Shown here one piece after another: positions 35,701 through 62,785 of a stretch of 64,000 nucleotides of DNA. Numbering within the stretch: the first letter of the stretch is position 1; each line of letters begins with the position of its first letter. A model generated the notes under the pieces. It was not told where the DNA came from. It saw nothing but the letters and a program-made list of their open reading frames with translations, and did no database searches. The DNA is from Callorhinchus milii. Lineage: Eukaryota. A program made the position numbers and the translations under genes. The DNA lies in contig NW_024704750.1 of the NCBI RefSeq assembly GCF_018977255.1, positions 10,168,001 through 10,232,000 of the forward strand, written 5' to 3'.

Positions 35701-35812
35701 TTCTTTGTTAAGTGTCTGGTATGGGGAGGGAAAGAGATCTCCCCTCTGAAACAAAAATTCTGCCACCAAATAATTCAACTATTTTTTGCTCTTACTGCAT
35801 GTTGCATTTTTT

Positions 35813-36736: not shown

Positions 36737-36915
36737 GAACTCCCGACCAGGATGCACAAACCCTAACATTGCGACTGTACCTCGCCAGAGAGGCTACGGT
36801 GTGTCCAGCCTAAGCCCTGCTCAGATCACCCGGGTCAAAGTGATGATGTCCCTGGGACAACTAGCCAAAGGAGCCAGCATGGATGACCTACTTGAAACCT
36901 GCATTCAGTCATTTG
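36737..36915 (+). CDS. RASGRP1: RASGRP1 exon (equivalent to exon 2): [59 protein letters not shown]
   Basis: TTTCAG acceptor, TTG|GTAAGA donor, 179 nt, phases 2/1. Matches RASGRP1 [25 protein letters not shown] at the start of the REM domain. Confidence 0.92.
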
Positions 36916-39039: not shown

Positions 39040-39490
39040 TTTCTTCTCTGATCCCTTTCTCCAAACTGAAATTAGGAGTTTGACTTTAAGACACTCACCC
39101 TTAGCTTCAAATGTCTCCCTGGCCTTAACCTCCCCTGCTTCTCAGATTTCCTTCAATTCTACTTGCCTAACTATCGCGTTCGCCCACAAATTTACAGTCA
39201 ATTCACTTTGCAGTGTGTTCTGTGAAGCGCTTTGGGACGTCCTTCCGACGTGAAAAGCGTTATATCAAATGCAAGGATTATTAAGGATTATTATTATCCG
39301 TTTCCTTCGCCAACTCTGACTTACTTTATGTTCCTCTATCCATTGGCATGCAAGCTTTCAGACACCTTGCCCCCACTCTCTGGACATCTCTCCTGAAATC
39401 CCTCTACCTCACTGCTTCCTGTCTGCTTTAACCCTGTCCAAAAACCTATTAATTTGCACCTTCGGACATCTTTTCCCTCCAGCCCCAAAC
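39040..39490 (+). mobile_element. Old L2-like remnant interrupted by a SINE 3' fragment (39175-39297)
   Basis: Pyrimidine-rich L2-like sequence on both sides of a young SINE tail ending GGATTATTAAGGATTATT. Confidence 0.6.
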
Positions 39491-41159
39491 TCCCTTGCAG
39501 CTCAGGCTAAAAACTTTAATCTCACTAGTAGCAATGCACATGGGTGAAATGGAAAAACACACACAGGGGAAACAGAAACGGGGATGTTCTTTGGGTACCT
39601 AATATTACATTGGTCCTATCTGTAGTATAAATGGGACATTTTCATGAAGCTGAAAGTGGGCAGCTTCGAATGCGGAACTTTGATTACAGCTCCAGGAATA
39701 ACCTGAGCAGATCTGGCTTTCAAAGGTTTGGATGTTCTCCTGTGCGAGTCACCAACATTTAGGTTATGGTTGTGAACCAGGTAAATTATATCTCTGATCA
39801 GATACAGAGTGGAACCTCAGCTGTTACAAATCGTATTACAAACTCGTTGCTATACACATCCTTTCCATCTGCACACATAGTCTTTCAGGGATTGCATCAT
39901 TTCATCTATATATACACATCCGCGTACAGTATCATGATGCAAAACTGCACTAATATTCCTGGAGCAGCTGACTGTAGCAATTACTTGTGATATTATTTTC
40001 ATCTCTTGAGAGGTTACTTACTGATAAATATTACACTCATTTTCCATCTCTTTCCTATTTGGCCAGGACTGTTCTACCTACACACACAGAATTACCTGAA
40101 AATGTAAAGAATACGTTGTATTATTACGTTGTGTTATGTATTCGACAATGTTTGAGTTGCTGACTAAAATAGCCCAGCTGGGATTCTATTTCTCTGTCAG
40201 GGATAAAAGATGCATGTCTTTTTTAAGAAGCATTAATACTCTTTTCAAAATGCTTGTCAGAATTTCCAATTAGAAAACAGAATTTCTAGCTGCCGAGATG
40301 TAAAATACTTATTCTTTTGCAGTGACTGATAGTGTCCTTTGTCACATCTTTGGTTTGCTCAGAGCACGCTAATGTAGCTGCTCTTAAATTTGTGGTATCT
40401 GCATTATTGTATTTCAAACAACCACTCTCTTTTGCCAGCTCTTCCTCATTCTGTGGCCCTCCCCACAGTGCTCTCCTATGCAGTGTCCAGCACATTTATA
40501 CTGCAGAGTTCTGCAGAATTGCTTCAAACACGAGCCGCCATTTCAAAGTCAGTAACAGAATATTTTCTGTTTCTGCGGGTAAGGTCCATGCAGTTCTGAA
40601 ATACTCACATCATATCCACATCAGTCATGTTTCTAGCTTATCATTCCATCCCTTCCAGATGTCGGTTTTGTTTTACCTGTTCTCAGTATCAGGTCTTGTT
40701 TTATTTTTACACTCCATTCAATTAATACACAGTAAATCAAAATCAGCTTTAAGACAATCCATGATTTATTGCTGCACAACGCACCTGAATGGAGCTTTCC
40801 TCTTTATGACACAATTTTATTTCAGTTTAAACAAAGGCTTTTATTAAAGAATAAGCCATGCTTGTATCTTTTTTTAATAACAATCAAAAAACTTAACAGA
40901 CTTTGGCACAAGTTCTCCCAAATCCTGGATGAGATGGATTTGAAGCAGGCAGTACAAATTGTGGTTCCCTGCTCCGAATAGCTCTACTATTGGAATCAAT
41001 GTCACTTTACTTCCCCAGTATATTAAAAAAAGGTCATAAGAAAGAGTAAAAGGTTTTACAATCTTTTGTAAAAGGATCGACTTCAAGATCCTCACACTTG
41101 TGTTCAGGTGTTGTGGGTTGGGAATTAGCAGATTGAATAGTATCCTAAAGGAGTATCAT

Positions 41160-41860
41160 TTAACGTTCACTTGCATGCGCAAATACTCATCCGAAGAATA
41201 GCACCTCCAACTTTGCAGTACTCCCCCAGCACTGCACTTGAGTCTCATCCTAGTCTATGGGTTCCAGTCCTGATGTGAGACTTGAATCCAAAACCTTCTG
41301 ACTCAGAGACGAGAGTGCTACCAAGTTGGAGGTGTTGTTCTTTGGATGAGGCAGGAAACCTAGTATTCGTTAGTGCAAGTGAACATAAAATGATATGATT
41401 CCTCTAGGATACTATTCAATCTGCTCATTCCCAAACTCACATCACACAAGCATGGCAAAAACAACTTAGACAACGAAGATGTAGCACATCAAGCAAGTCT
41501 ATTCAGATTCAATATTATTATCTAGGAAAGCTCTATTCAGGTGCATTGTGCAGTTTACAGTGAATCCTTCACAGTGAGCGCCTTGGGACGTCCTCCAGAC
41601 ATGAAAGGCCCTATTCAAATGTAATGTTGTATTAAAGATCCCTATTTGAAAAGACAAGGGTGTTCCAATTGTCCAATCAACAATCCCTCAGATAAAATTG
41701 GTCATTCACTTCATTTGTGGGACATTGCTATATGCAAATTGGCTACCAAGTTTACCTACAAATACATAGTCACTACAGTTTACAGTAAATATTGTGAAGG
41801 GCATTGGGATATTTCGACAACCTAATAAGGTGCTATATCAAATAAAAGGATTATTATTAT
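41160..41860. mobile_element. Cluster of Deu-SINE fragments (- at about 41160-41325; + at about 41635-41860)
   Basis: CTCATCCGAAGAATAGCACCTCC..CCTTCTGACTCAGAG..GAGAGTGCTACC (reverse-complement head and core) and a + strand tail. Confidence 0.7.
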
Positions 41861-42504
41861 GAACTCACAGCTCACAAGATTTCTGTGATACAGAGAGCCA
41901 AGTAATCACACTCCTCTACGAGTTCATTCTGCTCATTCCCAATCTCACTGGTTTGCTTGTCAGTTGAGAACATCACCCTCAAAAATGCAGTCACTGCAAT
42001 ATACAGTGAATCCTGTGAAGCGCTAGGGACATCGTTCCGACGTAAAAGCGTTCTGGGACGCTATGTGTGAGGGGCGCTATGTAAATGCAAGTTGTTGTTG
42101 AAAGGCTTATACCAAATGTTAGGATGATGATAATTGTGTCTTCACTGCAACATTTGCAGCAAAGCCACAACTCCAAAGACAGTAAAACCATCTTTCAACT
42201 AACCGGTGATGAAAGAATGTCGTCAATATTTACACACAAGATGCAAGATAACATCACACAAGCATAGCAAAAACAATTTAGACAGCGCAGATGTAGAACA
42301 TCAAAACAGGTCTATTCAGATTCAATATTATTACCTAGAAACATGCGACTCAATCCTCCCACTTCATTTAAGCATACAATTATTTTCTGTAATGTACAAT
42401 AATAGTTTGGAGCTGGGCTGTATTATTTGACTTTTGAGGTCTCTATGTAAGTAATGTTAGTGAGTTGAAATGTTGCAGAAAAGAACCATAAGCTTTTGTT
42501 TCGT

Positions 42505-42655
42505 TTTGATTCATCCAGGTGTCTGACACGTGCAAAATCCTATCGCCATGCTTAAGAGCACCCAAAACAGAGTTCCACTTATGTATGCCACCTAAATATG
42601 GAAATTTCCCTGTGTCTAGAATGGATTGTGCACTCTCTCCCTACAGCAGTGCATT
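42505..42655. repeat. Dispersed repeat of unknown class, copy 2 (inverted relative to 24410-24570)
   Basis: GGTGTCTGACACGTGC..TGCCACCTAAATATGGAAATTTCCCTGTGTCTAGAATGG. Confidence 0.7.
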
Positions 42656-42932
42656 CTGCTTACGTACCCATGCAGAAAGTAGCTTATTAGGTGCACGAGC
42701 CAAGGCTTGGGATTCCCAGAGTGTGCATTGGAGTACTGCTGAAATTTAACCAGCTAAAACCTATTTGAGATTTTAATACCTATTTGAGAGTCAAAGCCTA
42801 GAATAACAGTAACAGAGGAACAGGAGTAAGCATACACCCCATTGAGCCTGTCTAAACAATAAGGCTTTACTTACTTGAAAAATGTATCGTCACAATTTAT
42901 AGAGCAAAAATGAAGGAATTCACCAAGACTCT

Positions 42933-43275
42933 TTTACTGTGAAATGAAGTAACTGTATTTGTAGGCAAACATTTGCACCAAGCAGTGTCCCACAAACAGC
43001 CATGAAACAAGTAACCAATTTTATTTGGGGGATTGTTGGCCAGGACACCGGGAGAAACTCCCTTCTCTTTTTGAATAGTGCCATGGGATTTTTAACGTCC
43101 ACCTGAACAGGCAGATGGGACCTCGGTTTAACGTCTCATCCGAAAGATGACACCTCTGAATGCAACACACCCTCAGTGGTGCATTTGAGTGTCAGCTTAT
43201 ACTATGATTTGACGTGGGATTTGAACCCACAACCTTGTGACTCAGAGGCGACAGTGCTACCACTGAGCTAGGCTG
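42933..43275 (-). mobile_element. Deu-domain SINE, best-preserved copy
   Basis: Reverse complement gives a tRNA-like head, GGATGAGACGTTAAACCGAGGTCCC..CCTGTTCAGGTGGACGTTAAAAATCCCATGGCACTATTC core and 3' body. Confidence 0.87.
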
Positions 43276-46200
43276 TCCTTTTAAAATCTCACTTGCCTGT
43301 GAGAAAACCACTGCAGTGAAACATACAAACTAGGTAAACTTTCTTCGGCAAAGCTGTGCTTTAATTCTTTCCAGGAGAAACTTTTCCAATAAAAAGAAAC
43401 TCAATAAAAAGAAGACTTATCCATCCAGCAGCCTACCTAATATTGTGGGAACTCATCAACTAGAAGTGAAATTTAAGCTCACACTCAGCTATCTCCTTAA
43501 CAATCAGAAACCTACAGGTAGAGTAGTTTTACCTGATAAGAGCAAAGAGTTAAAAGCAAAATGACTGCCAATATAACTGATAAATACATGATAGATTTTA
43601 AGAGGAAAGCTTTCCTGCTGGGGCTTCTACACATCAGAGGTTCTCGTTGAGGTCCTGGGGTTAAGCAGCCTTTGGATGTTGAGATGTACACAGGCTCCGA
43701 TTGCTTCCTATTTGTGGGATAATGCATTGCCCAGCCTAACGCACACAGAGCTGAAATGTCACATCTCCAAATGAGGCTGCTCAATGGTGTACTTTGCTTT
43801 GAAATGTGCATCTCTTTGAGAGGAGGGATCAATACAGTTCGACAGAAGAGACCTACATCACGCACACTCTGAACTTTAACAACCCATCCTAGGTAATGAT
43901 GACATACATTTTGGCCATCAGAATACATACACTGTCTTTGTTTCCAACACCATGACAACCAAATACATTTGAATTCAAAGTAAAACTGTGTCCACAGTTT
44001 AGTTCCAAACTACGTTTAGTTTTGTAAAACATTAGTCTCAGTGGGTAAAATGCTCAACCACAAAGAGCAGCTAAATTTTCGTTTTGGGTTTCTATGGTTT
44101 GGACGAGAGTGTGTCAGTATTGAAACTCGGTTTAAATCCTAGTGCTACGTTAATTATCTATTATACAAATTGATGTATAAAAAAAACAAAGATTCAATCA
44201 AAATATAATAAATTATTGAGGTGATGTTCCCAAAAGTACATAGACCCAGTTTGCATTTTTGTGTTCGCTTAACAAAGAGTTAGGTAATTTTGTTTTCCAC
44301 TCTGAAAAGATTTCTGCCTCCATCACATTCCCAAAGTCTCAAGTTGCTATTTTGGTCCAGTCTATTGTCTGATCTTGGCTCATCACATTTTATGCATGAA
44401 TAATTTTTTTNATCTCCATATGCTCTTCATATACAAGACTCATTGCGAATGGTCAACATTTGTGGAGACAAGGCTGGATGACTCTAAAATAAATTAAATG
44501 CTTATTTCTGCAAACAGTCAAAATGTTTAATATTTACTGCTAAAAGCTACAGTAGCATAGCATAGATTGAATTAACACACTCTTGTCTAGGCAAACAATT
44601 TAGTACAAATGCAATATGGAAGTGAAAGAAACGCTGCTGGAAATATTCTTCTATGAGGTTAACACTGAGTGACCAACAAAAATATTTTCCCTCAAAAACA
44701 ACCCAATCTCTGAAGCCACCCTCAATTTGAATGAGTCAATATCAAGTAGGAAAAAACAGACAGCAAGGTGAGTCTCTGATAGCTCACTGGGTTAGCCACA
44801 CAGCCCACGTGTTGCAGATATGTGAACATTCCAGGTTCAATCCTGGCTCGGCACCGAGTTTAAATAAACGGTAGCAGCCAAGGTTCTCATTCTTCATAGT
44901 TATTCAGTGGTTCCTGCAGAAAACTACGCCCTTGTGAATGATAATAGTAAAAAATAATCCTTGCATTTGATATTGTTTCTTTCACGTCAGGAGGACATTT
45001 CAAAGCACTCCACAGGATTCACTGTTAAAAAAAGTAGTGACTGGGTATTGTTGTAGGTGAATGATCTTGTTCAGAATGATTGGGTTCAGGTACAGTGTCC
45101 CCCCACATTCAATCAACCTGACACTTATTGTCCAGGCTCATATCTGAAAAGTAGTCACTTAGATGAAGCACCAAACGACAGCTGATATTTTCGGGGCCAC
45201 AAGAAGACAGGTTCAGGAGAGAAGTAAGAGAAAATTATGGAAACGAAAAGAAGGGAAAGGCTGCACAAAATTAAACTTGGAACTTCCAAAATGACTCCTA
45301 TAAAACTAATATTGAATTTAGTGCATGTTTGCAATATTGTTAGTGAACAATACAGAAAAGGAGAACATACTGTAAGTTTTGGTAACCAAGAAGTGTAAAT
45401 TATTTTCAATGTGTGTGGATTTATTTGAAAAATTTACCTTGCAGTCACATGGGAATTCCCATTATTAGACGTTGTTATCTTTAAAAATATATACTCCCGC
45501 CAGTCACTACATCCATGGCACCACAACATTTTTTAAAAGGGGTTCAAAAGTGTTTTACCTGAACATCAATTGACAGTCCTGCTGAGGGGATAACTACCTT
45601 CGTATTTTATGGTCTATAAATGTAAAATAGCACACACTTTCAGAATTACTCAGAGGCAAAATGCATCTTAAGTGACACAATTGACAATAGTTCTAGTTGC
45701 CATGGTATCTGGCTTTTCTGTTATTAGAATACAAGTGCTTTTCACAATTGCTGTTGATTCGATTTTTTTTAGCAGCGCCATCAGCTCCATTACCCACGCC
45801 CACAATGAACATGGGGATTAGCTTGAAAACCTTAGGAGACTTTTCCGGTAGAAAATCTCCCCATCGATTTAGCACAGGGGCCAACTAAAAGTTTCTTACG
45901 AATCTTCAGGTGGAAAGGGGTGTGGGGTTGGGTGGGGGTGGGTGGCGCGGGCATTGTGTCTGGGTGAGGAGGAAAAAAATTGGTAGCGGTCGCCATGGCA
46001 ATAGAAAACAGCAGTCTGTAAAAATACTGTGGTCTGCGCTGATGTAAGAGGCCATCATTCAAAGCAAGAAGTGAAATTGAAATTTCAAGACAGAAATAAC
46101 AACATTTGCATTCCCTGTTCACTGAACCAAAATGCTGCTTGGCATCGATAAACAAGTGGTTTCACATTGATGAACCTTATTAGAAACCTTTACTGACTAT

Positions 46201-48458
46201 TTGCAGTGTTGTGCCACGAGAGGAACATTCCTGGCTATTTCAAATACATTTTTTGCATGTATTTTTGGGCCTCGCATACAGCTACTGAGTAAACCACATC
46301 GTAACATTAGTCAGTTTACCAACACTACAAAACAAGTGGGAAATAATCCATTTATTTAATAATTTCCCACCCGCTACTGTTTGTGCAAATGTATGGCAGC
46401 CGGGTGTGAAAGTGGCCAGGCCGACTGTGAAATCCCACAGATGGTTGGTGCTCACTGACCAGGCTCACACATGATTAATGGCCACTCAGGTGGGATATCA
46501 GAGGCCATCCAGCACCCATGGAGCTGCATCCCAGCAAACAGAGATGAAACCAGGAGTAGAGAGGCATATGTTCAGTGGAGACACAATTTTAAAAACAACA
46601 ACTTGCATTATACAATGCACTTCATGCAGGATAGCAACGGAGCCCCATACACTGACAGGGTCAGACACTGAGCATGGGAAAAGGGAGAGGTAGAGGTGAT
46701 CATAGGCATGGGTCCAAGAGGTAGCTCAAAAATGACGACAGACTAAAACTTTTTTTAAAAAAAACAAATGTGTCAGACAAGTAAGTGTAAAGGTTAGACT
46801 CCTTACTTCCTGGAACAGTGGGCCAAAGGACTTTTGCACCATGTGAAAAGTTCTCCGCCCCGAATTTGTATGTCATAAAACTGTTTTTGCAAAGAGGACC
46901 TTTGGATTTGACAACATGTTTATTCAGTAAATCAACAACCATAAGTCAACCAATATTCCAACAACAAATTGCATTTATACAGCACCTTTCATACCCTGAG
47001 GATGTCCCAAGGCACTATGCTTTCTTCAGCAGAAGTAGCTGTTTGTATGAATAGTTAATCAATAAATACACTGCATGTAGTTATATCAGGAGAGGCGATT
47101 TAAAGAAACTTAGGCAATAATTCAAAAGTATATAAAGGCAGGATTGGGACAGTCAATTCACTTTACAATATATTCTGTGAAGCACTTTGAGATGCCTCAA
47201 AAACGTGATGAGGTGCTATATCAAATGCAAGAATTATTATTATTAGATAACTGGATCCCATTTTCTGTAGTTCTTAAAAAAATACAGAAAATTCACTTAA
47301 AAATGAAAGAGTTGACACACTCCGGGTGCTCTGAAATGCTATGTTAATAGAATAAATTTAGGTTTAGTAGAGATTTTCTTCAAAAGACTCTGGGGGCCGG
47401 CATGTAAATCGTAGAGAGAAGATTTGCATGCATTTAACATGCTGCTTGATTCCGTTTGAAAGGAAAGAAAAAGATGCGACACTGCAAGTCAATCAGCAAT
47501 AGATATTCTGGCAATCAGGAATTCTGTAACAATGGCTAGATTTCCGTACTTGAGGTCTGTCTAGTTTGATGGCTTGAATACAAACTATGGCACTGTTAAC
47601 ATCATTATATTAGAGAACATGATTTTGCTGAGAAGTGTAGTAACTGTGCATTTGTGGGCAAACACAGCAGTCAATTTTCACTGAGCGAAGCGGGTGCCAG
47701 CAGTGTATATTGCTGATCTTTAAAGCAGAAGTGTGAGCAAATGGCTTTTCCTTAAAAATAGGGATACATATATTTTAGGATTTTATAGAAGCGAGAGTGA
47801 ATGTTGTAATTATTAACTTGTTGTTTATTTTAATCTAGAGATTGTTTTCCCAGTGAAACCTAGTACCTAGTTTTTTTTAAAAGCAAAAAAAAATTCTATT
47901 CTATGTAGTCATAGAATAGAATTTTTTTTTGCTTTTAAAAAAAAGTTTCATCATTAATACAACAATCGTGCATGTGGAGCAAAAAACAGTTGCAGAGAAT
48001 TTACTAATACCCAGTATTGTGCGTTTCAGTGTAGAACTACAAAAGCAGAAGTATGGCATTTTGCTAATAGTCACAGGACACTGCATCTCTTCAGTGAGGA
48101 TATCTTGTGAGAAGGCCAATTCACTCCCATCCAATGATGTTCAGATGTCTGATGATTATCCCCTCTCCATTCAGTTTGTGCTCACTGTAAACCTCTGCTA
48201 TCAGATTCCTAGCCATTGCCATCCCTCGACAACATAAAACAATTCTGCAAGATTGGTGCAAAAATGTTTTATGTTTTTACACAGGAAAAAAATGTGCAAA
48301 GTTGCATTTCAGGCTGTATAACACTTCAAGATACAGTTGATCTTCATAAAGTGCTCACATTATTATATTGCTCTCATTTACCATACTCTTGAGTACCTGT
48401 TATCCTATGTGTTGCAATATTCATCATACTTATCACTGAACTTTGAAAATTCATAGTC

Positions 48459-48700
48459 TAATAATAATAATAATCCTTGCATTTGATATAGCGCTTTTTC
48501 ACGTCTTCTAGACGTCTGAAAGCACTTCACAGAATATACTGTAAACTGAATTGACTGTATATTTGTGGGTGAAACCCGGCAGCCAAATGCGCACAGCAGT
48601 GTCCCACAAACAGTTGTGCGTTGAAAGTGACCAATTTATTATTTTTTGTTGTTTTGGAGGGATTATTATTAGGCGTGTGGAGTAAGGAAAATTGCCCAAG
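48459..48700 (-). mobile_element. Short-form SINE, 5'-truncated
   Basis: (AAT)n tail then reverse-complement body ending at TTGCCCAAG. Confidence 0.88.
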
Positions 48701-50397
48701 GTGGCTCTATTGTGCTAGTGTCTCAAATGGTTAGAATACCCACTCTTCTGCCTTCCCATTACAGCATCAAACACGTCTGGTGTCTTGTCCTTACCACTCG
48801 GTCAACTCCCACTCTTCCCTTGCTTGGCATCCAACCTCACCACTGTACAATGCTCTAAGATGCTAGTTTAGTTTTCAAGTTGATCCATTTTTGGAGTCTG
48901 ATGCGCAGGGTAGGTTTTCCCTGTTCCATGTAAAGGTTTACTTTGCAAGTTTGAAAATGAAACAGAATGGTTGGAATACCAAAGGTTGTTGCAAATTTAT
49001 CGCTGTGTCACACGCTTATGACAGAAATGATACACACACGTTTCTTCCTCCTGAAACGCAGTCTTCAAACCTCACAGTGACTGCCAGGTGATCTGTAGTG
49101 CCCCTTGACTTAATGAACTACTGGCCTGAAACATGTACATTATTTAAAGTTCGTCAACTCGTCACTTTGACAGTTAATTTGTGAAACTGACTGTAAAAGA
49201 AAGCACTTCATCAGTTGTGAAAGGAAGTTATTTATAGATGATTACTTTGTGAAGTTGTCGTCTGAAACCAGCCAAGAAACACACAAGCTCACAGTTACCC
49301 AAATACTATGGAAGATTAAGCCTGAAACAATGGAGCAAATTGGAACAAAAGACGCTATTTTAGGCAACAGTTCTAACAGAATTCTTAGAAACTGCTCATA
49401 TGGAAACTAACTTGAAGTGAGAGACAGCACAATATAAAAGAGAGTCTTCAGTACTTTAACAATATCGTGAGTGCTTTGTTTTTGTAGCTCCCACCATATG
49501 TTGCAGAAATGTATCAGAAAATGACTGCCCTTCAAAATGTGTTGTGGATGTTTTTCATTTAATCCACTGTTGTGCCAGTATAACTCATATGCTTAGTGCT
49601 ACATTTTTTGCTACAGATATCTCAACCAAAGGGAAATAGTGCATCCTCCCTCCTGATTGTGATATTTTACAGTAAAAAAAGTCAAATGAACCACCTTAGC
49701 TGTTTTGTGCTGGTAGTTGTTTTCAACTAGGAATCCTGCTCCTCATCACTACTAGGCTGATACTGGGCTATGGTTTTACAGGTGCCAGCACCTCTTCAGT
49801 AATTCATCCAAGTGGCTATTCTTTCTCAATGATCCCACACAATTAGCGTAGGCAGCTTATTTGACTTTTGGACTGCCAAGGCCCAATTTGTGCTCGCTTA
49901 ACATCCTCACCAAAACATTTTGTTGTAAGGACCAGATTGAAAGTCAGTGAGCACATTGAGTTTATTCCCTCCTCTATGTTGGCCAATTACACTGAAGCCA
50001 AATGTAGTGCATTTCCTTCACACCATGAAAAATCATCAAGCAGCAAAGAGTAGCGATTGAACGAGGTGGCTGCGTGGCACAGCCTGCTGATTTATTTAAG
50101 AGCCCCAAAAATCCCTTTTTACAACCATACTTAAAAATAACCTAGAAAAAAAAACATATTAATTTTCCATCAGTGTAACAACATCCAAATTACGGAGTAC
50201 TTTCCTTCAGGTTTTTTTTAAACTAAATAATTTGCAAAATATCTCTTTCATCAATTTGATGCATTCAAATTGCTTGTCACTTTGTTACTCACAAATGATT
50301 AAGTCAGTTTCACTCGCAAAACTATTAATTGTGTCACAGTGCAGGATTCAACACATACTTCGTGGTTTGAGTGAGGCAGACAATGCAGATAAGAAGA

Positions 50398-50774
50398 TAA
50401 TAATTATAATAATCCTTACATTTGATATAGCACCTTATCACATCTTCGAGACATCTCAAAACACTTTACAGAATACAGTGTAAAGTGAATTGACTGTATA
50501 TTTTGTGGGCAAAACGCAGCAGCCAATTGTGCAAAGCATTGTTCGACAAACAATCATGGATTAAGCGATAAATTATTATTATTTATTTTTTAAAGGGATT
50601 ATTAACCCTGGGAAAGGGATCTGCCAATCAACTAACAAACAGGTTCCTTACTTACTGCTAGGTAAACATAGGTGTGTGGAGTAAGGAAACTTGCCCAACA
50701 TTTTGCCTTGCTCGGGAGTCGAACCCAGGTCCTCTTGCTTGAGAGGCAAATGATTTAACCACTAAGCTACAGGA
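50398..50774 (-). mobile_element. tRNA-derived SINE, long form, full length
   Basis: Reverse-complement tail, internal segment and head. Confidence 0.88.
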
Positions 50775-52528
50775 AGACCAAATGTAGAATGTAAACAAAA
50801 CTACTTCTTTCAGAGTTCAGTCTTGGAAACCAATAGCTATCAGCACAGAAGAGAATTACTTCATAAGCTAAATGCAACCGATGCAAAGGCCATGAAATGC
50901 TTGGTAAATCTCACTGTTGTTTTACAATAATCAGCTTTGCATTTGATACACCATCTTATATCAAAACATCAGAAAGCACGTCAGAGACACAAATTGCCAA
51001 AGTTACAATGGAAAATGTGCCCACGAACCAGTGTATTTTACTGTGCGGACAATGAAATGAATTTATCACCTGGAGCCTACAGAAAAAAAGTTTACTGTCA
51101 AGTCCTTAAACTTCTGAAGAAAATTATTAGCATTACCTCTAATTTTCTATTCTCTGCAATGAGAGTCAATTGGGATTGTGTCATTTGAGGCAGTAAAAGT
51201 GCAGGTTCATGCCAATACTGATAAAGCTCTGATCTTAGTAGTTGAAAGTCCAAGTTGTGCTTTTTGAGGGTAGCTTGGCAGGAGCAGGTGCCTGTAAATT
51301 CTGAAGCACCTTCAGACTGCTTCACAATGCTTTTAAATCTTCACAAGAGCACAAAATAGGTCAAATGAAGAAGGCCACTTAAACCCATTTTCTCTTATCC
51401 TTCCAGAATAGCAATTCAACCATTTTTCTGTTACAGCATCAACCTGACTCTTCAATGAAACCAAAGGAGAAACGTTGGAATTTCCGTAGCAGGTTGATTT
51501 CGATCCAAAGGAAAGATAGGTTACCAACGTAGCACTTCAAACATTAAACCATTCTTCCTGGTTAGATGGCAAACAACTTTCTGTGGATTGGCAGCATTTC
51601 TGTTTACGTTTCAGATTTACAGCAGCATCTGCATTTCTCTTTCTATTTCTTACATGAATTAGTGTCTTGGCCATAGTTCTCCATCCTTGTAAACTCATTC
51701 TAGCTGTTGATTACCTTCCATATAGAGCCTAACCCATTCGAGCTGCTAATTGCCCTCTGTACAAAGAAGACCCCAATCCAGCAGCTCATCACTGTTTGTA
51801 TACACGCTATTCATCTGATTACATCGCAGCGAATTTTTACTTTAAAAATGAAAACAGTTCTTTGACAGTGGAATAATTTTTGCTGTGCAAGCTTTTTAAC
51901 TTAAATTTAATTCAGTTAAATAAAGAGTAGAAGAAAGTAGCTCATCTCCTCATGGGAGGGGAATCTGAATGATTTCAACTGATACTGTGGTATTAATAAA
52001 ATGAGGGAGTTGGGAAACCTGGATTTCCCTCTGCTGCGGATGTAGTTCCTCCTTGTCACATTTCTATTATTCTTCATGTATTTGAATATGAAAATAGGGA
52101 TTCCAAAAGATGCGTCACTAACCCGCATAAAATAGTAACATTGTGCTCAGATGCAACCTTTTTTTTTAGAAACGGATAGAAATAAGGATTGCAAAATGTG
52201 GTCTCTTTTTTAAGATTCCCATAGAAATAATTTTGTTTTTTAACCTTCTTAGTTTACCCCCAACCTGTGAAATTCCACAACTGAACGTTATGCCATTCTC
52301 CGAATGGTCTGCCCCTAAAAACATAAGCTGGATTGGTGGGATCTTGTTATAAAAGAATGCATTAGCAGAATAAAGGCTGCGTTGACAGAGATCATTACTG
52401 CAGCCAGAAATGCTAAATATAATGGAAATGTTTGCACAAACAGAATGGAATAGTAGAGGTTAATGAGCCAGCATTCTAATTTCTGTGTCGCTGGATGCTC
52501 TGGTAATTTTCCACTTCTTATTATGCAG

Positions 52529-52634
52529 ATGCAGACGGGAACTTGTGTCGAAGCAGCTACCTGTTGCATGTGACTCTCACCATGCACCGCTTCACCATGT
52601 CATCTACCGAGTTACTGCAGAAACTCATCACACT
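52529..52634 (+). CDS. RASGRP1: RASGRP1 exon 3 (REM domain): [36 protein letters not shown]
   Basis: ATGCAG acceptor, 106 nt, ends at U12 donor ATATCCTTT. Matches RASGRP1 [33 protein letters not shown]. Confidence 0.95.
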
Positions 52635-55600
52635 ATATCCTTTCATTGGGAGAGTCAATCTCACTGATAAACAGATGACACCACTGGAGTGTAATGAAAC
52701 CATCTGGATGGTAAAGCACAAATGTTAAACAGACCAGGATCGCTTTGTCCGCAGAAGAAGCTGCTTTTTAATTCATGATTGCTCAGTTTGGTTTTTCAGA
52801 GGTGAAATCCAAGGCTGGCATTGAATTGCCCTGTTCTTGTCAAAGAAAAAAAGCAAACTTAAATTAATTTTAAAAAATGAACACAGCACAAAACAAGTTA
52901 TACGGCAGTTATATTTATTTGGGGTGTATTTTACTCATGACATTTTCACATGCAAAACCAGGATGAATACATCTTAAATGAAACAAGCATTTGTGTTTTG
53001 GCTGAAAATATGTTTTTAATGTGTACCCTTTCTTATGATAAATATGCTTATGAGGAGCTAATTGATATCCCTGCATTATTAAGAATTTTTTTTACATATT
53101 TTTGTGATTTAACTAAAGTACTAAATCTCTCAGAAAAATATAGGTCATTCATTTCATGGCTTTGTGCAAATTGGCTGCTGCATTTGTCTACAAACAGTTA
53201 GTGCACTCGATAGTAAATTTTGTGAAGTGCTTCAAACTGTTTTCGAGATGACTATATGATAATGCACTCTATCAAATGTTAGGAGTATTATTACTGAGTA
53301 AACAATGTTCCAATATGACTGTTTCATGAAGAACAGATAAATCAAATATTGTGCTATTGGATCTGGTTAAATTCATTCTGTTCTGTGAAATATGGTTGAT
53401 TTTAATTTACTATGAATTCTATCAAATGTGCACAAAGGATTAGAGCTCCTCATTTTTATGTGCTAATCCATTAATTGCCTAGAGTAATGTATCAATTTAA
53501 GATGTCATCACTCGCGAAGCAGACAGTCTACTAAATGCAAACATTATTTTATATAGGCTAGGTAATACAATCTTAAGGGGGGGGTGAAAGAACAGAGAGA
53601 CCTGGGGGTTCAGGTAAATTAATCCTTGAAGGGGCAGGACAGGTAGATAAGGCTGTAAAAAGGGCATAGGGGATACTAGGCTTTATAAACAGGGGCATAG
53701 AGTACAAGAGTCAGGAGGTTATGATTAACCTATATAAAACACTGATTAGGCGTCAGTTAAAATACTGCGCCCAGTTCTGGGCACCACACTATAGGAAGGA
53801 TGTTAAGGCACTGGAAAGGGTGCAGAGGAGATTTACAAGAATGGTACCAGGAATGAGGGACCTCGATTATGAGGGAAGGCTAGAGAGGCTGGGATTATTC
53901 TCATTGGAGCAGAGAAGGTTACGAGGAGACCTAATAGAGGTCTTCAAAATCATGAGGGGTTTGATAGGTTAGAAAGAGAAAAACTGTTTCCACTGGTGGG
54001 TGTTTCGGTGACTCGAGGTCACAGATTTAAAATAGTATCTAAAAGAAGCAGAGGGGAGGTGAGAAGAAATTTTTCATGCAGCGAGTTGTTCGAATCTGGA
54101 ACGCATTGCCTGAAAGGGTGGTCGAGGCCAATTCAATAACTAATTTTAAAAACGCAGTGGATGGGTATTTGACGAGGACGGGTTTGCAGGGTTATGGGGA
54201 AAGGGCTGGGGAGTGGGATTGACATTACATTGCTCTTTTCAAAGAGCTGGCACAGACTCGATGGGCCGAATGGCCTCTTTTTGTGCTGTACGATTCTATG
54301 ATTCTATTATATTATTGCACCCCTCCATGATATCTTTTTATTGCAAACGAAACAGCAACTTTTAAGACATTTTCTTTTGCTTGATATGATCGGGTGTGAA
54401 TAAAACTGGAGAAATAGAAGTATTAGACAGATTCATTAATATAGGCATTACTGGGGAAGCACAATAGTTTTTATGAAGTCTGCAGTGAAAATCACGATAG
54501 TTTTTATGTAGTCTTCAGTGTAAATCATGCATATTTAATCCAAACTACATATTCCTTGGGTGCCAAGGTAAGAATGTCAAACAACTTGGATATCCTCCTG
54601 ACATGAATTAAATGTAAATTCGTACTCTATATAGACCCACAAGCACGCACATACGATTCAAAATGGCCTACAATTACTTTACAAAGTATCAATTTATCAT
54701 ATGGTAACTTATTCGATATTTTCTCAAGCTTCAAAATAAAAAACACACACTTTGTACCTCGGCAGATCAAACACCTGTTGTAAAACTACTTAGATAGAAA
54801 TAATGAAAGCATGTTCTCAAGCATAAGTTTCAATGCAAGCAGAGACTAATAATGCAATGCAAGGCTTGACGTAAATCTTAAAGCTAAATTCTAATTAATA
54901 ACTTTCTCACATATGGATAACCATATTCACATTAGGATAACCTCTCCGAGAGTTTCACAGTGAGAGGGGTTGAATGTTGAGCGAGGGAAAGGAGGGAGAG
55001 TGGTCCTTAGGCACGGTCAGAGTGCTAGGTTTTTAGTGGAGGTTAAATACAGATAGAGAGGGGATAAAGGGAGGGAGTTCCAGACGTTAGGGGTTTAGTA
55101 GTTGATGATTTGGCCACCAATAGCAGCGTAGAGGGGTCAGGGGATGTGCAACATGCTTGAGTTAGCCAAGTGGAGGTAAGCAAAGCAGTGGGGTTGGAGG
55201 AGACCACAGAGATAGGGTGGTGCTAGGGTATGAAGGGTGTCAATTCAATTTGCTCGGTGGCTAAATGCTAAAAGGTGTGTTCTAAGTTATTGCAACACTG
55301 GCGTGTAGCTTATTTCCTGCCCAAAGATTAAGGGGGAAGTGGCAGACTCAACCCTGCAGCAGAACAACAACAAATCATCAAAGCTTGAACAGCAGAGCTA
55401 ATATGACTAATTACAAAATTGATCCCCAATACCAATAAATAGAATCCACTTTAGTCCTTATGAATCATAAATGCCATTGGAACAATTCGCTTTAATCATA
55501 GATAAAAGCTGTGACCTGGTAAAGTATTGATTTTTTTAAAAATCATTTCATTTTTCTGCTTGTATATACATTTTGATGGCTATTGGAAGTGTGAAATTGT

Positions 55601-55853
55601 AATTTAGGAAACTTCCATCAGTCCTAGAGGATGAGCTGAAGTTTATCTTCTAGGATCTAGATCACTAGATGACATGTTTAAGACCCTACATAGCCATGAT
55701 GGAATCTTAAAAACTCTCCTTTTCCAGCAGTGGGCTGCACAGAGGAAAAAACATGAGCGTTGCCAATCGAGCTGGTCTCAATAAAAGTGAGGCACAATTT
55801 AAACTGTGATTTGTGGATGTTTCAGATTTGACGTTTTCTTAACTGTGACCTAC
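52635..55853 (+). other. RASGRP1: U12-type (minor spliceosome) AT-AC intron of RASGRP1
   Basis: 5' site ATATCCTTT at 52635, branch site TTTTCTTAAC 55834-55843, 3' end TAC at 55851-55853. Joining CT|A restores the frame (ITL-YQSAL). Confidence 0.93.
53560..54307 (+). mobile_element. CR1 LINE, 5'-truncated (ORF2 C-terminus plus 3' UTR), with stops and frameshifts
   Basis: ORF 53721-53972 LYKTLIR..YCAQFWAPHYRKDVKALERVQRRFTRM..LGLFSLEQRRLRGDLIEVFKI; terminal GATTCTATGATTCTAT octamer repeat typical of CR1. Confidence 0.93.
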
Positions 55854-55916
55854 ATATCAGAGTGCTTTACAAGACAACAGTGCACCATCCTGCTTGAAGA
55901 TCTGTTACTTTATAAG
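55854..55916 (+). CDS. RASGRP1: RASGRP1 exon 4: YQSALQDNSAPSCLKICYFIR
   Basis: 63 nt after the AC acceptor, AAG|GTAAGG donor. Matches [21 protein letters not shown]. Confidence 0.93.
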
Positions 55917-56565
55917 GTAAGGCTTTTCCTGGAAATAGCAACCAAATGTGTGACAAGACAAAAACAGATCGACTTCCTGCAGCTGCGCAGGTCATTCTGT
56001 GTTTCAATTTGAAACAAAACTTGGTTCAAGTTTTTGCATGGAACACATAAAAAGTATCTAATTGTGCACACTGAATGTTTTCTTCAATCGCAAATGAACA
56101 CGATTTATGCTACTTGGTATGGCCCAGTGTAGTGCTGTTAATTCATGAAACATAGATTTTTTTTAGTACAGAAGGAGTTGCCAAGAAGGGTGGTTGAAGC
56201 CAGGACACTGGATTTATTTAAAAACAAAGCTGGATGACGCTGTGGTAAGAGGACTGTAGGGCAAGTGTTCTAGAAAGATAAGGTTGGATTTCGTCATCCA
56301 AACGTTCTTGTATTCTTGTTAGACCACTTGCCCACTGTGCCTTTATAAAAGAGCTATCCATTTATATTTTATCTTAAAAAAGCTGTATAAATGCAAGTTG
56401 TTGCTCAACTTTCTTTTTAAAAGAATCAGCAGATTGAACAGTGATTGATGTTGATGTGGCTGCTTGGAATGCATAATGTGAATGTTATAGCAGCCTTTAT
56501 AGTGTTGACATATCCAAATAGTGTTCAGTGCTTTGTATAGGTTTACAGTGGGGGCCAAAATGGAA

Positions 56566-57835
56566 ACAACACAACAAAATTACATTTATGGACCGCCTTT
56601 CACGTCGGGAGGACGTCCCAAGGCGCTGGACAGTCAGGGGTCAGGACCTGAGCATGGGGGAGGGGTGGGGTAGGGGTGAGGGAAGGCAGAGATGTGGGAA
56701 GGCAACTGAAGGCACAATCGAAGAGGAGGGTCTTGAGACTGGCCTTGAAGGAGGCAATGGAGGAAGTGAGGCGACGTGATGGAGTTCCAGAGGGTGGAGA
56801 CAGAGAGGCTGAAAGCCTAGCCACCGATGGTAGGGTGGGTCGGGCGGGGGACATGGAGCAGGCCAGAGCCCACTGAATGGAGGGCAGGTTGGTAGGGAGT
56901 CAGCAGGTCAGAGAGTTAGGAGGGGGCAAGGCCATGGATGGCCTTGAAAGTGAAGACGAGGATCTTGAATTCAATCCTCTGAGGGATGCGGAGCCAGTGG
57001 AGTTGGGCGAGGGTGGGAGTGATGGGGTCACGGAGCCTGGTGAGCGAGAGAACGTGAGCTGCAGAGTTTTGGATGATCTGCAGCTTTTGAAGGGAAGAGC
57101 TGGGAAGGCTGACGAGAGGGGAGTTTCCATAATTGAGCCTTGATGTGATGAATGCGTGGGTGAGGGTTTCGGCAGCCTGAGGGGTGAGGCAGTGGCGGAG
57201 TCTGGCAATGTTGCGGAGGTGGTGGTGGGCAGTGCCGGTCATGGCGTGGATGTGGAGGGAGAAAGTAACAGTTCAGGGTCGAACAAGATACCCAGGTTCC
57301 TGACTGGCTTAGTGAGGTTGAGTGTGCAGCCGTGGAGGCTGATGCTGCCAGCGCCTGAGGTGCGGAGGCGCTGGCCGGAGCCAATCAGGAGGGCCTCGGT
57401 CTTGCTGACGTTAAGTTGGAGAAAGTTGGCCCTCGTCCAGGACTTGATGTCGGACAGGCAGTCGGTCAGGACGCCAGTAATCCTGGAGTTGAGGGTGGAG
57501 GTAGAGAAATAGAGGTGGGTGTCATCCGCATACATGTGGAAATTTACCCTATGTCTGTGAATGATGTCACCAAGCGAGAGCATGTAGAGGGTGAAGAGGA
57601 GGGGACCGAGGACAGAGCCCTGAGGAATGCTGCGTGAGACAGTGCAGGGGCTGGAGGAGAAGCCGCTTGTAGAGACGAGTGGAGGAGGTGTGAAAGGTAG
57701 AACCTGAACCAGTCAAGGACAGAACCTTGAAGATTGAGGTTGGAGAAGAGGTGGTGGAGGAGGATTGAGTGGTCCACAGTATCAAAGGCGGCGGATAAGA
57801 CGAAGAAGCAGAGAGCGCCCTGGTCACACATGGTC
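56566..57835 (-). mobile_element. L2-clade LINE, 5'-truncated, frameshifted reverse transcriptase remnant
   Basis: ORF pieces [14 protein letters not shown] (57544-57837), [19 protein letters not shown] (57239-57583), HLRNIARLR..SRLNYGN..LHWL..RIEFKIL (56916-57242), SFKASLKTLLF (56600-56854); (CAA)n-like tail. Confidence 0.94.
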
Positions 57836-57907
57836 ATTTGCCTACCATTTGCCTATTTGCCTATTTATCAATACACTTGTTGGTATATCCTGTGAGCACT
57901 TTTGTGA

Positions 57908-58250
57908 CAACAACAACAACAACAAGATTCCATTTATAAAGCGCCTTTCACGTCAGGAGGACGTCCCAAGGCGCTGCACAGTTGGGTCATGACCCGAGCA
58001 GGGGGGAAATGGTCAGGGTGAGGGGAGGGAGCGAGGAGGGGGGAAATGGTCAGGGTGAGGGGAGGGTTGGGAGGGAGCGAGAAGGGGGAAGAGAGTCAAG
58101 AGGGGAGCTGAAGGCACGGTCAAAGAGAAAGGTTTTGAGACCGGCCTTGAAGGAGGAAAGGGAGGAAGCAAGGCGAAGGCACTGGGGGATAGAGTTCCAG
58201 AGCCTCGGGGCTGAGAGGCTGAAGGCCCGACCACCAATGGTAGGGACAAC
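57908..58250 (-). mobile_element. L2 LINE 3' fragment (second copy)
   Basis: ORF 58050-58277 GGRAFSLSAPRLWNSIP..SFKAGLKTFLF; (CAA)n tail at 57908-57924. Confidence 0.88.
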
Positions 58251-58425
58251 ATCCCGATGTGAAAGGTGCTGTATCAAATGCAGGAATTATTATTTTGTCT
58301 TCAGGTAACTTTGTATAAATAATAATAATAATAATAATATAAATAATCCTTGCATTTGATATAGCGCTTTTCACGTCGGGAGGACGTCCCAAAGCGCTTT
58401 TGTGAAAGGCGCTTTATAAATATGT
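58250..58425. mobile_element. Three SINE/L2 tail fragments in alternating orientation
   Basis: + tail 58250-58293, - tail 58318-58400, + tail remnant 58401-58422. Confidence 0.75.
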
Positions 58426-59225
58426 TTCTATTGTGGGCAGTTGGTGGCAGACCTTGATTGTATTCCCAGCAAATGACAATGTGATGTAGCAAACGGAAAT
58501 TATCTGGAAAATCTCACCTGTTGAGCTAGAACATGATCTGCACAGACTTTGAACCACACCCTTGTCTGTTCCAAGTAACCACATGCATAAGAGCAGTGAC
58601 AGATAACATCTGCCTGTAATGCTGGATTGAAATTCTACTTAATGTTTCAATTATGCTGCACCTTTTGTGACATTTGAGTTTGATTTTCACAAACTCATAG
58701 AGAATAATCCAGTATAGATCAGGTTTGAGGTACACATAATCACCATGCTATGTGCAATGGAATCAAGATTGCCATGTCCATTTTGAAGCTATAATTTACA
58801 ACAGTGATCCTTACATTTGGTACATCAGGAGAATGTTTCAAAGCGCTTCACAAGATATACAGTAAAATGGACTGACTGTAACCATGGGTGGGTTTTATCT
58901 TAAAACCATGGGTGGGTTGTCTGTAAAGATGAAATGAAACGGGCTTCAAAAGTCTCTTGTGACACTGTTTTGGCAAAAGATAAAATGATTGACAAGCACT
59001 GTTTGAGGAGATGACTGTGTTAAAAACTTAAACATTTCAATATGGAATCGGGGACTTTTAGTTTGATCGCAAAATCAGTTTCAACCTTGCCATTTCGTTG
59101 GGGAGGCTTTGGAAGGCAGGTAAGGAAAGAAATAGTCAGTACACCTTAATGAGTGGACACAATGTTCCAAAATAAATGGGCCACTGTTGAACTGAGAGTT
59201 GATTTCACTGTTTCTGTATTGCCAG

Positions 59226-59357
59226 GTACTGGATAACGGAGTTTTGGATTATGTTTAAAATGGACAACAGTTTGTCAGAAGCTATGGAACAATTTCAACA
59301 ACTGGTGAGAGAGAATGGTGAAGAGTGCCACTCCCGCTTTATCGACACCTCACAACT
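59226..59357 (+). CDS. RASGRP1: RASGRP1 exon 5: [44 protein letters not shown]
   Basis: GCCAG acceptor, CT|GTAAGA donor, 132 nt. The YWITEFW.MFKMD motif is RASGRP1-like rather than RASGRP2/3/4-like. Confidence 0.95.
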
Positions 59358-59921
59358 GTAAGAGAAACCCACTTTCTATTCTCCCCAAAAAACAGTTCTA
59401 CCTATTCACATCTGATGTACAGTGTTAGGCTTTGACGCTCAGGAAAGGAGAGATGAGAATAAGGGACAGAAATTCAAGTTTTTTTTCAGATAAAGTCACT
59501 TTAAAAGCCTCAGCCTCATTTAGGCAGCAGATACAGTGTGGGCAAAGAGGGAGTGTGGACATGTGTAAAGGGTTGGAGTTTGTAAAAAGGTTCAGATGAC
59601 AACAAAAAGATATGAAAACCTCTGAACCCTTATAGCCCACAATTTGTGCCAGCAATGAATCATACTTACTTGTAATAGACAGTGGTCAGGCTGGTTTAAT
59701 TCTTCTAAGGCTTCTTATATTGTGACTGTGAGGTCAATCACCTTCCACTATAAGGGTGCTGGAGATAACGATGACGGTAAGTCTGAAGGCGCATGAGCTC
59801 AGGAAACTACACAGACACTATTACCCAGTGATATTATCAATTGTTTATGGTGTTCAGTCTGACGAGGGTAATATTTTTAAGAATGGATTTGTAAAGGGTT
59901 CACTGCGTTTCTCCCCCACAG

Positions 59922-60075
59922 TAATGCCCACGACTGGTCGAGGAAGCTCACTCAGAGGATAAAACCGAACAGCAGTAAGAAGCGTAAAGTTTCCCTCCTG
60001 TTTGACCACCTGGAGCCAGGGGAGCTGGCCGAGCACCTCAGCTACCTCGAGTTCAAGTCCTTCCGCAGGATTTCA
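59922..60075 (+). CDS. RASGRP1: RASGRP1 exon 6: [51 protein letters not shown]
   Basis: CCCACAG acceptor, TCA|GTAAGT donor, 154 nt. DWSRKLTQR and the start of the CDC25 domain are conserved. Confidence 0.96.
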
Positions 60076-61002
60076 GTAAGTGCACTTTACATCACCTCAC
60101 ATACCATTATATCAGACTCTCAGGGAGAAGATGCTGGGATCAGCTATGCCATTGAAACAACAATGGGGTTTTCAGGCCTGACATTCCACCTTCTCCTAGC
60201 CTGGAAGATTATTTTGTCTTAATATTTAGGATCATGTAGGCTTGTGAAAGATTCTTAAATTCAGCCTTAATTTGGAAACTGGTTGTTTTTAACGACTGCA
60301 ATAAACTATCCTCCAAATTCTGACAAAATTTAAGAACTTGCAAGTATTCAGGCTAAGACTAGGTGGAATTTCGAATCAACCAAATCTGATGATTTCAAAT
60401 GATGACTTCTTGATAAGGGATCCTAAGGGTTCAAATAGGGTTTGCTGTAGAGGTAATTGGAAGTGTGTCATGCTAGCTCATCTCTCAGAATGGATTAGGT
60501 CTCATTTTGGTATCTGAAGAGTATCCAACCCAAACCAAGTGTCATGCTCTGCACTCGCAGTTAAATGATACTATTCCGACATTCTGACAGCTATTGTTTG
60601 GAGAAATTGGTCAAATCAAAGTTACCTTCATCAAATATTACAATAATTACATTGTTCCCGGCCAATCATACAACTCTTTTCACCTCAATACCCCTCATTC
60701 CCACGCCTATATTTGATGAATTTCCATTATTTTTAATGTGAATCAACAGCAATTTGAGATTTCAAGTGGCATTGTTGTTTAAGAGGTACTTCACAGTGCT
60801 TGGCAACACTGTGCATCTACTGATGTCTCAAGTGGATAACAGCATCAGGATGCCTCGTGCATTGTAAAGAATATACATTCCAAAAATCCAAAGAACAGAA
60901 TTCTATTATCCTGAGCATGTCCGCTTCTGATGCCCTGAAATAGATGCATTATTCATTAGCTTAAAGTGTTGTGTTTATGCTGCCTCACAGTGTGCAATGA
61001 GG

Positions 61003-61309
61003 GCTTCACAGAATACACTGTAAAGTGAATTGACTGTATATTTTGTGGGCAAAACGCAGCAGCCAATTGCACACAGCAGTGTCCCACAAACAGTCGTGGA
61101 TTGAGTGACCAATCTATATATTTTTTAAGGAATTATTACCCCCGGAAAAGTGATCCGCCAATCGACTAACAACTGGGTTCCTACTTACTACTAGTTAAAC
61201 AGAGGCGTGTGAAGTAAAGAAACTTGCGCAAAGTTTCAACCTACTGGGAATCGAACCCGGGTCTCTCGCTTGCGAGGCGAGCGCTCTAACTACTGAGCTA
61301 GAGGACTCC
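61003..61309 (-). mobile_element. Long-form SINE lacking its tail; a + strand tail follows at 61318-61350
   Basis: Reverse-complement body and intact head ending GAGGACTCC. Confidence 0.88.
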
Positions 61310-61430
61310 ATGGGACTGCTATATCAAAAGCAAAGATTATTTTATTGTTAAATCAAAGCATTTTGCTTGAGATGCACACCAATTGGAAATGCTGGTCTGC
61401 AGAATGCATTGCTTACTATGTTTTGTCCAG

Positions 61431-61604
61431 TTTTCAGATTATCAGAACTACATCATGAGCAGCTGTGTAAAGGACAACCCCACAATGGAGCGTTCAGTTG
61501 CTTTGTGTAATGGTATCTCACAATGGGTTCAGCTCATGGTTCTCAGCAGACCTACCCCACAGCTTCGTGCAGAGGTCTTCACCAAGTTTATTCTCGTCGC
61601 CCAG
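61431..61604 (+). CDS. RASGRP1: RASGRP1 exon 7 (CDC25 GEF domain): [58 protein letters not shown]
   Basis: GTCCAG acceptor, CAG|GTATGG donor, 174 nt, visible within ORF 61383-61616. Confidence 0.97.
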
Positions 61605-62668
61605 GTATGGGTTTGAAACGTTTTCTTACTTTAGGCTGTCACGTTAACCTTTTGGTCAAATTAGTAATTACTGGTATCTTGCACCAAAAATAATCACAGC
61701 ATGTTGTGAATATACAGTAGATTATTGTTGACATTGTTTTTCATGATACAAAATAAAAAATGCAATACACCCGTCATTTTTTATTGTCTGTTCCCAAGAT
61801 ATATGTTATAGTGGAGACTTTCCGAATTGAACTTTTCAGTGTTATGAAAAGGATAGCAAGGTTGATATGGACAAATTATTCACTACAGTGAAGGGTTTAA
61901 ATGCCACGGTACAGATAAAAAATAGCAAGTAAGGTGCAAATCCAAGTGGAACTTTAATACAAAGGGTCACATACAAATACACAATTAATATACTTCCCAG
62001 AAAAACTCTGAAGTACTTTAAGATATTCGGCAGTATATCAAACATAAGATTTTTTAAAAATGGATACGCAAGTTGCAGCAAATAATATAAATGGGTTAAA
62101 GAACAAACTAGGTGAGAAAAAACATATGGAATTGAGAATCAAACAGTGGAAACACTCATTGGACCTAAAAGGCTTTTTTTTCCCCCTGTTGTTAAACAAT
62201 TTATGTTCTTATGATAGGTTTGACAGAAAGTCAGAAAAATCTGGAATGCAAAATGATTTCATTCAGTTGCATTCTTGAGTGCCCGAGGCAGTGAGAAGCT
62301 AACTTGCCATACCAGCGGAATTCATTTAGTAGCATGTGAAGCAATCATTTTTCATGTAAATGCCAATATGTTATGTCTGAACACTTGCATCAATTTTGAA
62401 ATCCAGAACCATGACTAGGAATTATAAGTATAGGTGTGAGAACACAACACATGATGCAAAACACTCTGAATAACACTGAAAAGTTCAATTCGGAAAGTCT
62501 CCACGATAACAAAAGATTACAAGTTTTAAACAAATTCTGCAATGCTGTTGTAACTCAGGTTGGAGGTGTTAATTATGGTGTGTGGTGCAGTCAATGTAAA
62601 TCATTCCTTGTAAATTATCCTGGTTTCACTGATTCAACATTCTAACGTTCATCTCCTATCCCTCACAG

Positions 62669-62785
62669 AAACTCCAGCAGCTGCAGAACTTTAATACACT
62701 AATGGCAGTGGTGGGAGGTTTGTGTCACAGCTCAATCTCCAGACTCAAAGAAACAAGCGCATGTGTCCCTCATGAAGTTAATAAG
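62669..62785 (+). CDS. RASGRP1: RASGRP1 exon 8 (CDC25 GEF domain): [39 protein letters not shown]
   Basis: CTCACAG acceptor, AAG|GTCAGT donor, 117 nt. Contains the RasGEF signature [18 protein letters not shown]. Confidence 0.97.

What the first reader, a model, noticed from the sequence alone, without database searches (positions are those of the whole stretch)
52635..55853. Minor-spliceosome AT-AC intron splits the RASGRP1 REM domain
Seen: canonical U12 donor ATATCCTTT, branch TTCTTAAC with the branch A 11 nt from the terminal AC, and a frame-restoring junction. The intron start ATAT repeats the first four bases of exon 4, so GT-AG gene finders would misplace it. Known: U12 introns are rare, AT-AC is the rarer subtype, and they can be rate-limiting; RASGRP genes are, to my knowledge, minor-intron genes. 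Retention would read [10 protein letters not shown].. to a stop at 52728 and remove the GEF domain. The feature itself is probably conserved rather than new.
Basis: partly seen in the sequence, partly recalled or inferred. Interest (0 to 1): 0.7.

Follow-up and report, generated by a model that had tools for sequence, protein, structure and literature searches.

The report
Known minor intron in ghostshark RASGRP1
The elephant-shark RASGRP1 gene has a real intron with rare AT-AC ends that is cut out exactly in spliced sequence contigs and is likely removed by the cell's minor splicing machine, but the same intron is already catalogued in human and mouse, so it is ordinary; only some public protein models draw it wrongly.

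Summary
Confirmed, but known. The window is elephant-shark (Callorhinchus milii) RASGRP1. Intron 3 runs 52635-55853 with donor ATATCCTTTC, branch motif TTTCTTAAC and terminal AC; it is the only non-GT-AG intron of 16 and lies inside the RasGEF_N/REM domain. Contigs of two studies join 52634 to 55854 (AT..AC); a genomic-type run does not. The orthologous human intron is catalogued as U12 AT-AC at the same codon and phase, and is retained when CENATAC, ZRSR2 or U4atac is defective. Both other RASGRP paralogues found in this genome have an AT-AC intron at the same site. One correction: the sliding repeat is 5 nt, not 4. Minor-spliceosome use and retention level in the shark are inferred, not measured. 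The scan has noted like AT-AC introns in other genes of this genome; none for RASGRP.

The parts
52529..52634 (+). RASGRP1 coding exon 3 (106 nt), first part of the REM domain; ends after two bases of the Leu120 codon
   Evidence: covered by contigs X1, X2, X4
52635..55853 (+). Intron 3, 3219 nt, AT-AC, phase 2, U12-type by sequence
   Evidence: joint 52634>55854 AT..AC in X1 and X2; model reproduces RefSeq protein
52635..52644 (+). U12-type 5' splice site ATATCCTTTC; positions 3-9 are predicted to pair with the 5' end of the genome's U11
55835..55843 (+). U12-type branch motif TTTCTTAAC; complementary to the genome's U12 with one G-U pair; branch A likely 55841 or 55842
55852..55853 (+). AC 3' splice site
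55854..55916 (+). Coding exon 4 (63 nt); starts ATATC, the same five bases as the intron start
52726..52728 (+). In-frame TAA reached if intron 3 is retained (150-aa product, 13 exon junctions downstream)
52654..55860 (+). False GT-AG intron that explains the LYPFIGRSALQ reading of four UniRef models; no contig supports it
53540..54310 (.). High-copy repeat DNA inside the intron (limits approximate; not classified)
   Evidence: depth thousands of times the flanks in run X8
30446..62785 (+). RASGRP1 coding exons 1-8 (gene continues beyond the window; 17 coding exons, other 15 introns GT-AG)

Best explanation
This is intron 3 of elephant-shark RASGRP1, an AT-AC intron that is excised at 52635-55853 in spliced contigs, is orthologous to the catalogued human and mouse RASGRP1 minor intron, and is likely removed by the minor (U12-dependent) spliceosome. 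U11 is predicted to pair with donor bases 3-9 and U12 with the branch motif, the bulged A would attack the AT donor, and the AC 11 nt downstream is used as acceptor, joining the two halves of the Leu120 codon and restoring the REM domain. Unspliced transcripts would stop at 52728 and likely be degraded by nonsense-mediated decay, so full-length RasGRP1 would depend on minor-spliceosome activity, as shown for the human orthologue. The intron likely predates the vertebrate RASGRP duplications.
For: Shown: motifs and frame; joint 52634>55854 AT..AC in 2 of 4 runs laid (X1 depth 34.6, X2 depth 14.7, two studies), while X8 runs unbroken over both ends and X13 does not cover the exons; X4 contig spacing fits a 63-nt exon 4; RefSeq protein reproduced exactly; 19 of 24 chondrichthyan RASGRP1 proteins covering the site read LYQ without an insertion; U11 and U12 genes over Rfam cut-off in the genome, duplexes -6.2 and -8.4 kcal/mol, the two best of 12 pairings tried; AT-AC introns at the same codon in 2 of 2 other paralogues found. 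From papers (supplement rows): human RASGRP1 chr15:38519372-38526298 is U12 AT_AC with the same split Leu codon; retention rises 0.11 to 0.38 in CENATAC patients and 0.07 to 0.35 in ZRSR2 mutants (PMC8280824) and 0.008 to 0.22 in U4atac-patient cells (PMC6800510); all four human and mouse RASGRP genes have AT-type minor donors (PMC6717393).
Against: No minor-spliceosome perturbation exists here for the shark, and some AT-AC introns are spliced by the major spliceosome (PMC6717393 passage). The runs are only guessed to be RNA, and contigs drop rare forms. Because of the 5-nt repeat the contigs alone fix the joint only within six registers; AT-AC is chosen by the motifs. The U11 duplex is only 0.6 kcal/mol better than the next pairing tried. 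Neither of two U6atac hits looks clearly intact. In one compilation the human intron responded in 1 of 9 perturbation data sets (PMC11347168). The paralogue junctions were not checked against transcripts.
Confidence: 0.95

Rival explanations
1. The real intron is GT-AG, 52654-55860, giving LYPFIGRSALQ as in four UniRef models.
For: 4 of 6 C. milii proteins covering the site read this way; the junction is in frame. Mouse Rasgrp1 is listed with cryptic 5' and 3' site use in three tissues (PMC6717393 supplement).
Against: No contig shows it and X1, X2 have no cover at 52644-52765; it adds four residues absent from 19 shark proteins; its acceptor has the lowest pyrimidine share (0.53) against 0.59-0.88 for the 16 modelled introns. 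The same YP read-through appears in 11 of 76 scorable RASGRP3 models of other vertebrates, as expected of an annotation artefact.
Confidence: 0.02
2. The AT-AC ends are real but the major spliceosome removes the intron (U2-type AT-AC).
For: Such introns exist (PMC6717393 passage); the 3' end is 71% pyrimidine, like the gene's other introns, although that stretch is the branch motif itself.
Against: The donor is the full U12 consensus, not an AT version of GTRAG; the branch motif sits 11 nt from the end, within the 11-13 nt optimum quoted; the human orthologue is retained on loss of minor components.
Confidence: 0.03

Closest known systems
Human RASGRP1 minor intron chr15:38519372-38526298 (U12 A-type, AT_AC) and mouse Rasgrp1 chr2:117302024-117305777 (PMC6717393, PMC8280824, PMC6800510 supplement rows)
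   Same: Same gene, same split Leu codon followed by Tyr, same phase, same donor ATATCCTTT, AC end, branch motif 11 nt from the end.
   Different: Length 3219 nt against 6927 (human) and 3754 (mouse); branch motif TTTCTTAAC against CCCTTAAC; the 5-nt donor/exon-4 repeat is absent in human, whose exon starts with C.
Minor introns of human and mouse RASGRP2, RASGRP3, RASGRP4 (Rasgrp3 intron 4 retained in SMA mice, PMC5224493 passages)
   Same: One A-type minor intron per gene; shark RASGRP3 (C3, 894 nt) and a third shark paralogue (C68, 311 nt) have AT-AC at the same codon.
   Different: Human RASGRP4 ends AA and human RASGRP3 has the weaker donor ATATCTTT, whereas all three shark paralogues have ATATCCTT and AC by sequence.

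Membership tests
U12-type (minor) AT-AC intron | 5' splice site RTATCCTTT at the exon boundary | tested here: met
   ATATCCTTTC at 52635
U12-type (minor) AT-AC intron | Branch motif of TCCTTRAC type about 10-20 nt before the 3' end | tested here: met
   TTTCTTAAC 55835-55843, one C>T from consensus, A 11 nt from the end
U12-type (minor) AT-AC intron | Excised at AT...AC in transcripts, restoring the frame | tested here: met
   (two studies); register within the 5-nt repeat is set by the motifs
U12-type (minor) AT-AC intron | Minor snRNAs present and complementary to the sites | tested here: inconclusive
   U11 and U12 found and complementary; two U6atac hits, neither clearly intact, only 45 of 48905 candidates scored; U4atac not searched
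U12-type (minor) AT-AC intron | Splicing depends on the minor spliceosome | not testable with these tools
   Shown for the human orthologue in supplement rows; no shark perturbation data
Orthologue of the catalogued RASGRP1 minor intron | Host gene is RASGRP1 | tested here: met
Orthologue of the catalogued RASGRP1 minor intron | Same codon position and phase as in human | tested here: met
   human donor and acceptor flanks split the Leu codon after two bases before Tyr, as here

The most novel reading that the evidence does not exclude
The AT-AC intron was kept in every RASGRP paralogue from chimaeras to mammals because it is a selected throttle that ties RasGRP output to minor-spliceosome activity, and REM-less isoforms that start downstream of it (RefSeq isoform X2, 662 aa, with like models in three other sharks) are a conserved bypass that keeps the catalytic domain.
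Probability: 0.1. Interest if true: 0.45.

Novelty: already known. Interest (0 to 1): 0.12.

Why it matters
Little is new. It extends a catalogued disease-responsive minor intron to cartilaginous fish and dates it to before the RASGRP duplications. The practical value is an annotation fix: four UniRef models of this protein carry a spurious four-residue insertion in the REM domain, and the same error recurs in RASGRP3 models of other vertebrates. A multi-species intron catalogue built on Ensembl 99 includes this species and may have the site misclassified; that was not checked.

Tried and rejected
Alternative junctions: six slides and 14 in-frame GT/GC-AG pairs were enumerated; none but the 5-nt slides gives the RefSeq protein. 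(13-kb stretch) was swamped by repeats: its joint table showed only repeat joints, so only the piece table was used. No run was on record as RNA. Retention could not be measured: one X1 contig (depth 2.5) crosses the acceptor by only 25 letters and none crosses the donor. X13 did not cover the exons. No Rfam family in 52400-56100; only short, likely chance repeats within the intron. The C68 paralogue was not firmly named: its GEF exon scores RASGRP1 > 4 > 2 in PDB. No fourth paralogue appeared (56 of 65 candidates scored). The first RASGRP3 survey by pattern left 60 of 120 unscored and was replaced by alignment, which left 44 of 120 unscored. Literature searches with no direct text on this intron: 1 review; 0; 0; unrelated listings; 0 supplement hits. 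The primary ZRSR2 paper was not seen; its result is taken from a review passage and a reanalysis table. One supplementary file each of PMC8280824 and PMC6800510 was not searched, and per-species intron tables of the online catalogues were not seen.

Full report
Observation. Exon 3 (52529-52634) is followed by ATATCCTTTC, the only RTATCCTT on the + strand of the window. TTCTTAAC lies at 55836-55843 and the intron ends AC at 55852-55853, 11 nt after A55842. Retention reads to TAA at 52726-52728. The donor motif occurs 3 times and the branch-plus-AC pattern 4 times in 128 kb of both strands; both landing within 10 nt of the homology-defined exon ends is about 3e-7 by my arithmetic. One correction: intron and exon 4 share five starting bases, ATATC.

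Gene. The exon 3 peptide matches human RasGRP1 in PDB 4l9m best (E 1.2e-9) and is identical to Callorhinchus milii RASGRP1. The window lies at G000:C9. With neighbouring stretches, a 17-exon model with 15 GT-AG introns and this one AT-AC intron translates exactly to RefSeq XP_007886245, 811 aa. The intron splits the Leu120 codon, inside Pfam RasGEF_N (69-164); the RasGEF domain is 219-395.

Splicing evidence. Of 13 runs listed six were laid. In one search the only joint listed is 52634>55854, ends AT..AC, in X1 (depth 34.6) and X2 (14.7), from two studies; X8 runs unbroken across both splice sites, and X13 does not cover the exons. In one search an X4 contig has 61 letters between 52634 and 59224, which fits a 63-nt exon 4 and not the 75 nt of the GT-AG model; the X3 rows shown did not include the site. 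The runs are guessed to be RNA, contigs drop rare forms, and the joint could lie up to five places further on; only the leftmost register has splice-site ends. Retention could not be measured.

Misannotation. Of 9 C. milii proteins in the cluster, 3 lack the region, 2 RefSeq models read LYQSALQ and 4 UniRef models read LYPFIGRSALQ, which is what a GT-AG intron 52654-55860 gives. Of 32 chondrichthyan RASGRP1 proteins, 24 cover the site: 19 clean, those 4, and a Mustelus model with a one-residue insertion. Among 120 proteins from the RASGRP3 search, 76 could be scored; 63 were clean, 11 showed YP read-through of the donor and 2 had other indels. That the UniRef entries derive from Ensembl is my recall.

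Paralogues and machinery. A search of the genome with the full protein found two more RASGRP genes. RASGRP3 on C3 (named) has an 894-nt AT-AC intron and the C68 gene (RASGRP4-like, not settled) a 311-nt AT-AC intron, both with ATATCCTT, a CCTTRAC branch motif and the same phase before Tyr; these were read from sequence only. U11 and U12 genes are present and give the two best of 12 duplexes with donor and branch motif. The two U6atac hits look degenerate, so an intact copy was not shown.

What is known. PMC6717393 (passages and supplement rows) lists RASGRP1-4 as minor-intron genes in human and mouse with AT-type donors, and puts AT-AC at 22-24% of minor introns. PMC8280824 (abstract and supplement rows) lists human RASGRP1 chr15:38519372-38526298 as AT_AC, with flanks that split the same Leu codon, and retention rising in CENATAC patients (0.11 to 0.38, adjusted p 0.003) and ZRSR2 mutants (0.07 to 0.35). 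PMC6800510 (supplement rows) shows 0.008 to 0.22 in U4atac-patient lymphoblasts. PMC5224493 (passages) reports retention of the Rasgrp3 minor intron in SMA mice. PMC9405558 (passages) names RASGRP1, 2 and 4 as ZRSR2 targets. PMC11347168 (search listing and supplement rows) classes the human intron as minor, responsive in 1 of 9 data sets, and includes C. milii from Ensembl 99. PMC10639083 supplements gave no hit. I found no text on the shark intron itself.

Mechanism. Shown: the ends, the excision, the frame, orthology with the human intron and presence in three shark paralogues. Inferred: use of the minor spliceosome (from motifs, snRNA complementarity and the human orthologue), the branch A, decay of retained transcripts (stop with 13 junctions downstream) and an origin before the RASGRP duplications. 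Untested: any regulatory or rate-limiting role in the shark.

Verdict. A correct reading of a real, conserved and already catalogued minor intron. Earlier scan notes report the same kind of result for other genes of this genome and none holds all of the words RASGRP, U12, minor and intron. Interest 0.12.

Noticed in passing
G000:C3:61948189-61949082 (-) and G000:C68:160666-160976 (+): RASGRP3 and a third, RASGRP4-like paralogue carry AT-AC introns at the same codon; the UniRef shark RASGRP3 model P0034 also reads through the donor.
   Followed up: partly
window 59226 onward (exon 5); P0007, P0014, P0016, P0019, P0021, P0022: RefSeq models in C. milii and three other sharks start at a Met in exon 5 or use other first exons joined to exon 5, skipping the minor intron and most of the REM domain while keeping RasGEF.
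   Followed up: no
L016 (G000:C2:27158569-27158693) and L017 (G000:C14:12235371-12235565): Both U6atac hits look degenerate: L016 reads AAGAAGA where L017 reads AAGGAGA (the box I recall as pairing with the donor) and lacks a closing T run; L017 has about 70 extra bases. An intact gene may be unscored or missing from the assembly.
   Followed up: partly
P0017 (Mustelus asterias RefSeq) and 11 of 76 scorable RASGRP3 proteins: A YP(F/L) signature at this site marks models that read into the U12 donor; it could serve as a quick flag for missed AT-AC introns in protein databases.
   Followed up: partly
window 53540-54310, 56580-58400, 60920-61300, 50500-50710: High-copy repeats in introns 2-6; several are abundant in the RNA-like runs. 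Not classified.
   Followed up: no
window 53163-53195: A 33-nt intronic stretch is shared with contigs from elsewhere in all four runs, with the same flanks in X1, X2 and X13; likely a short repeat fragment in another transcript.
   Followed up: no
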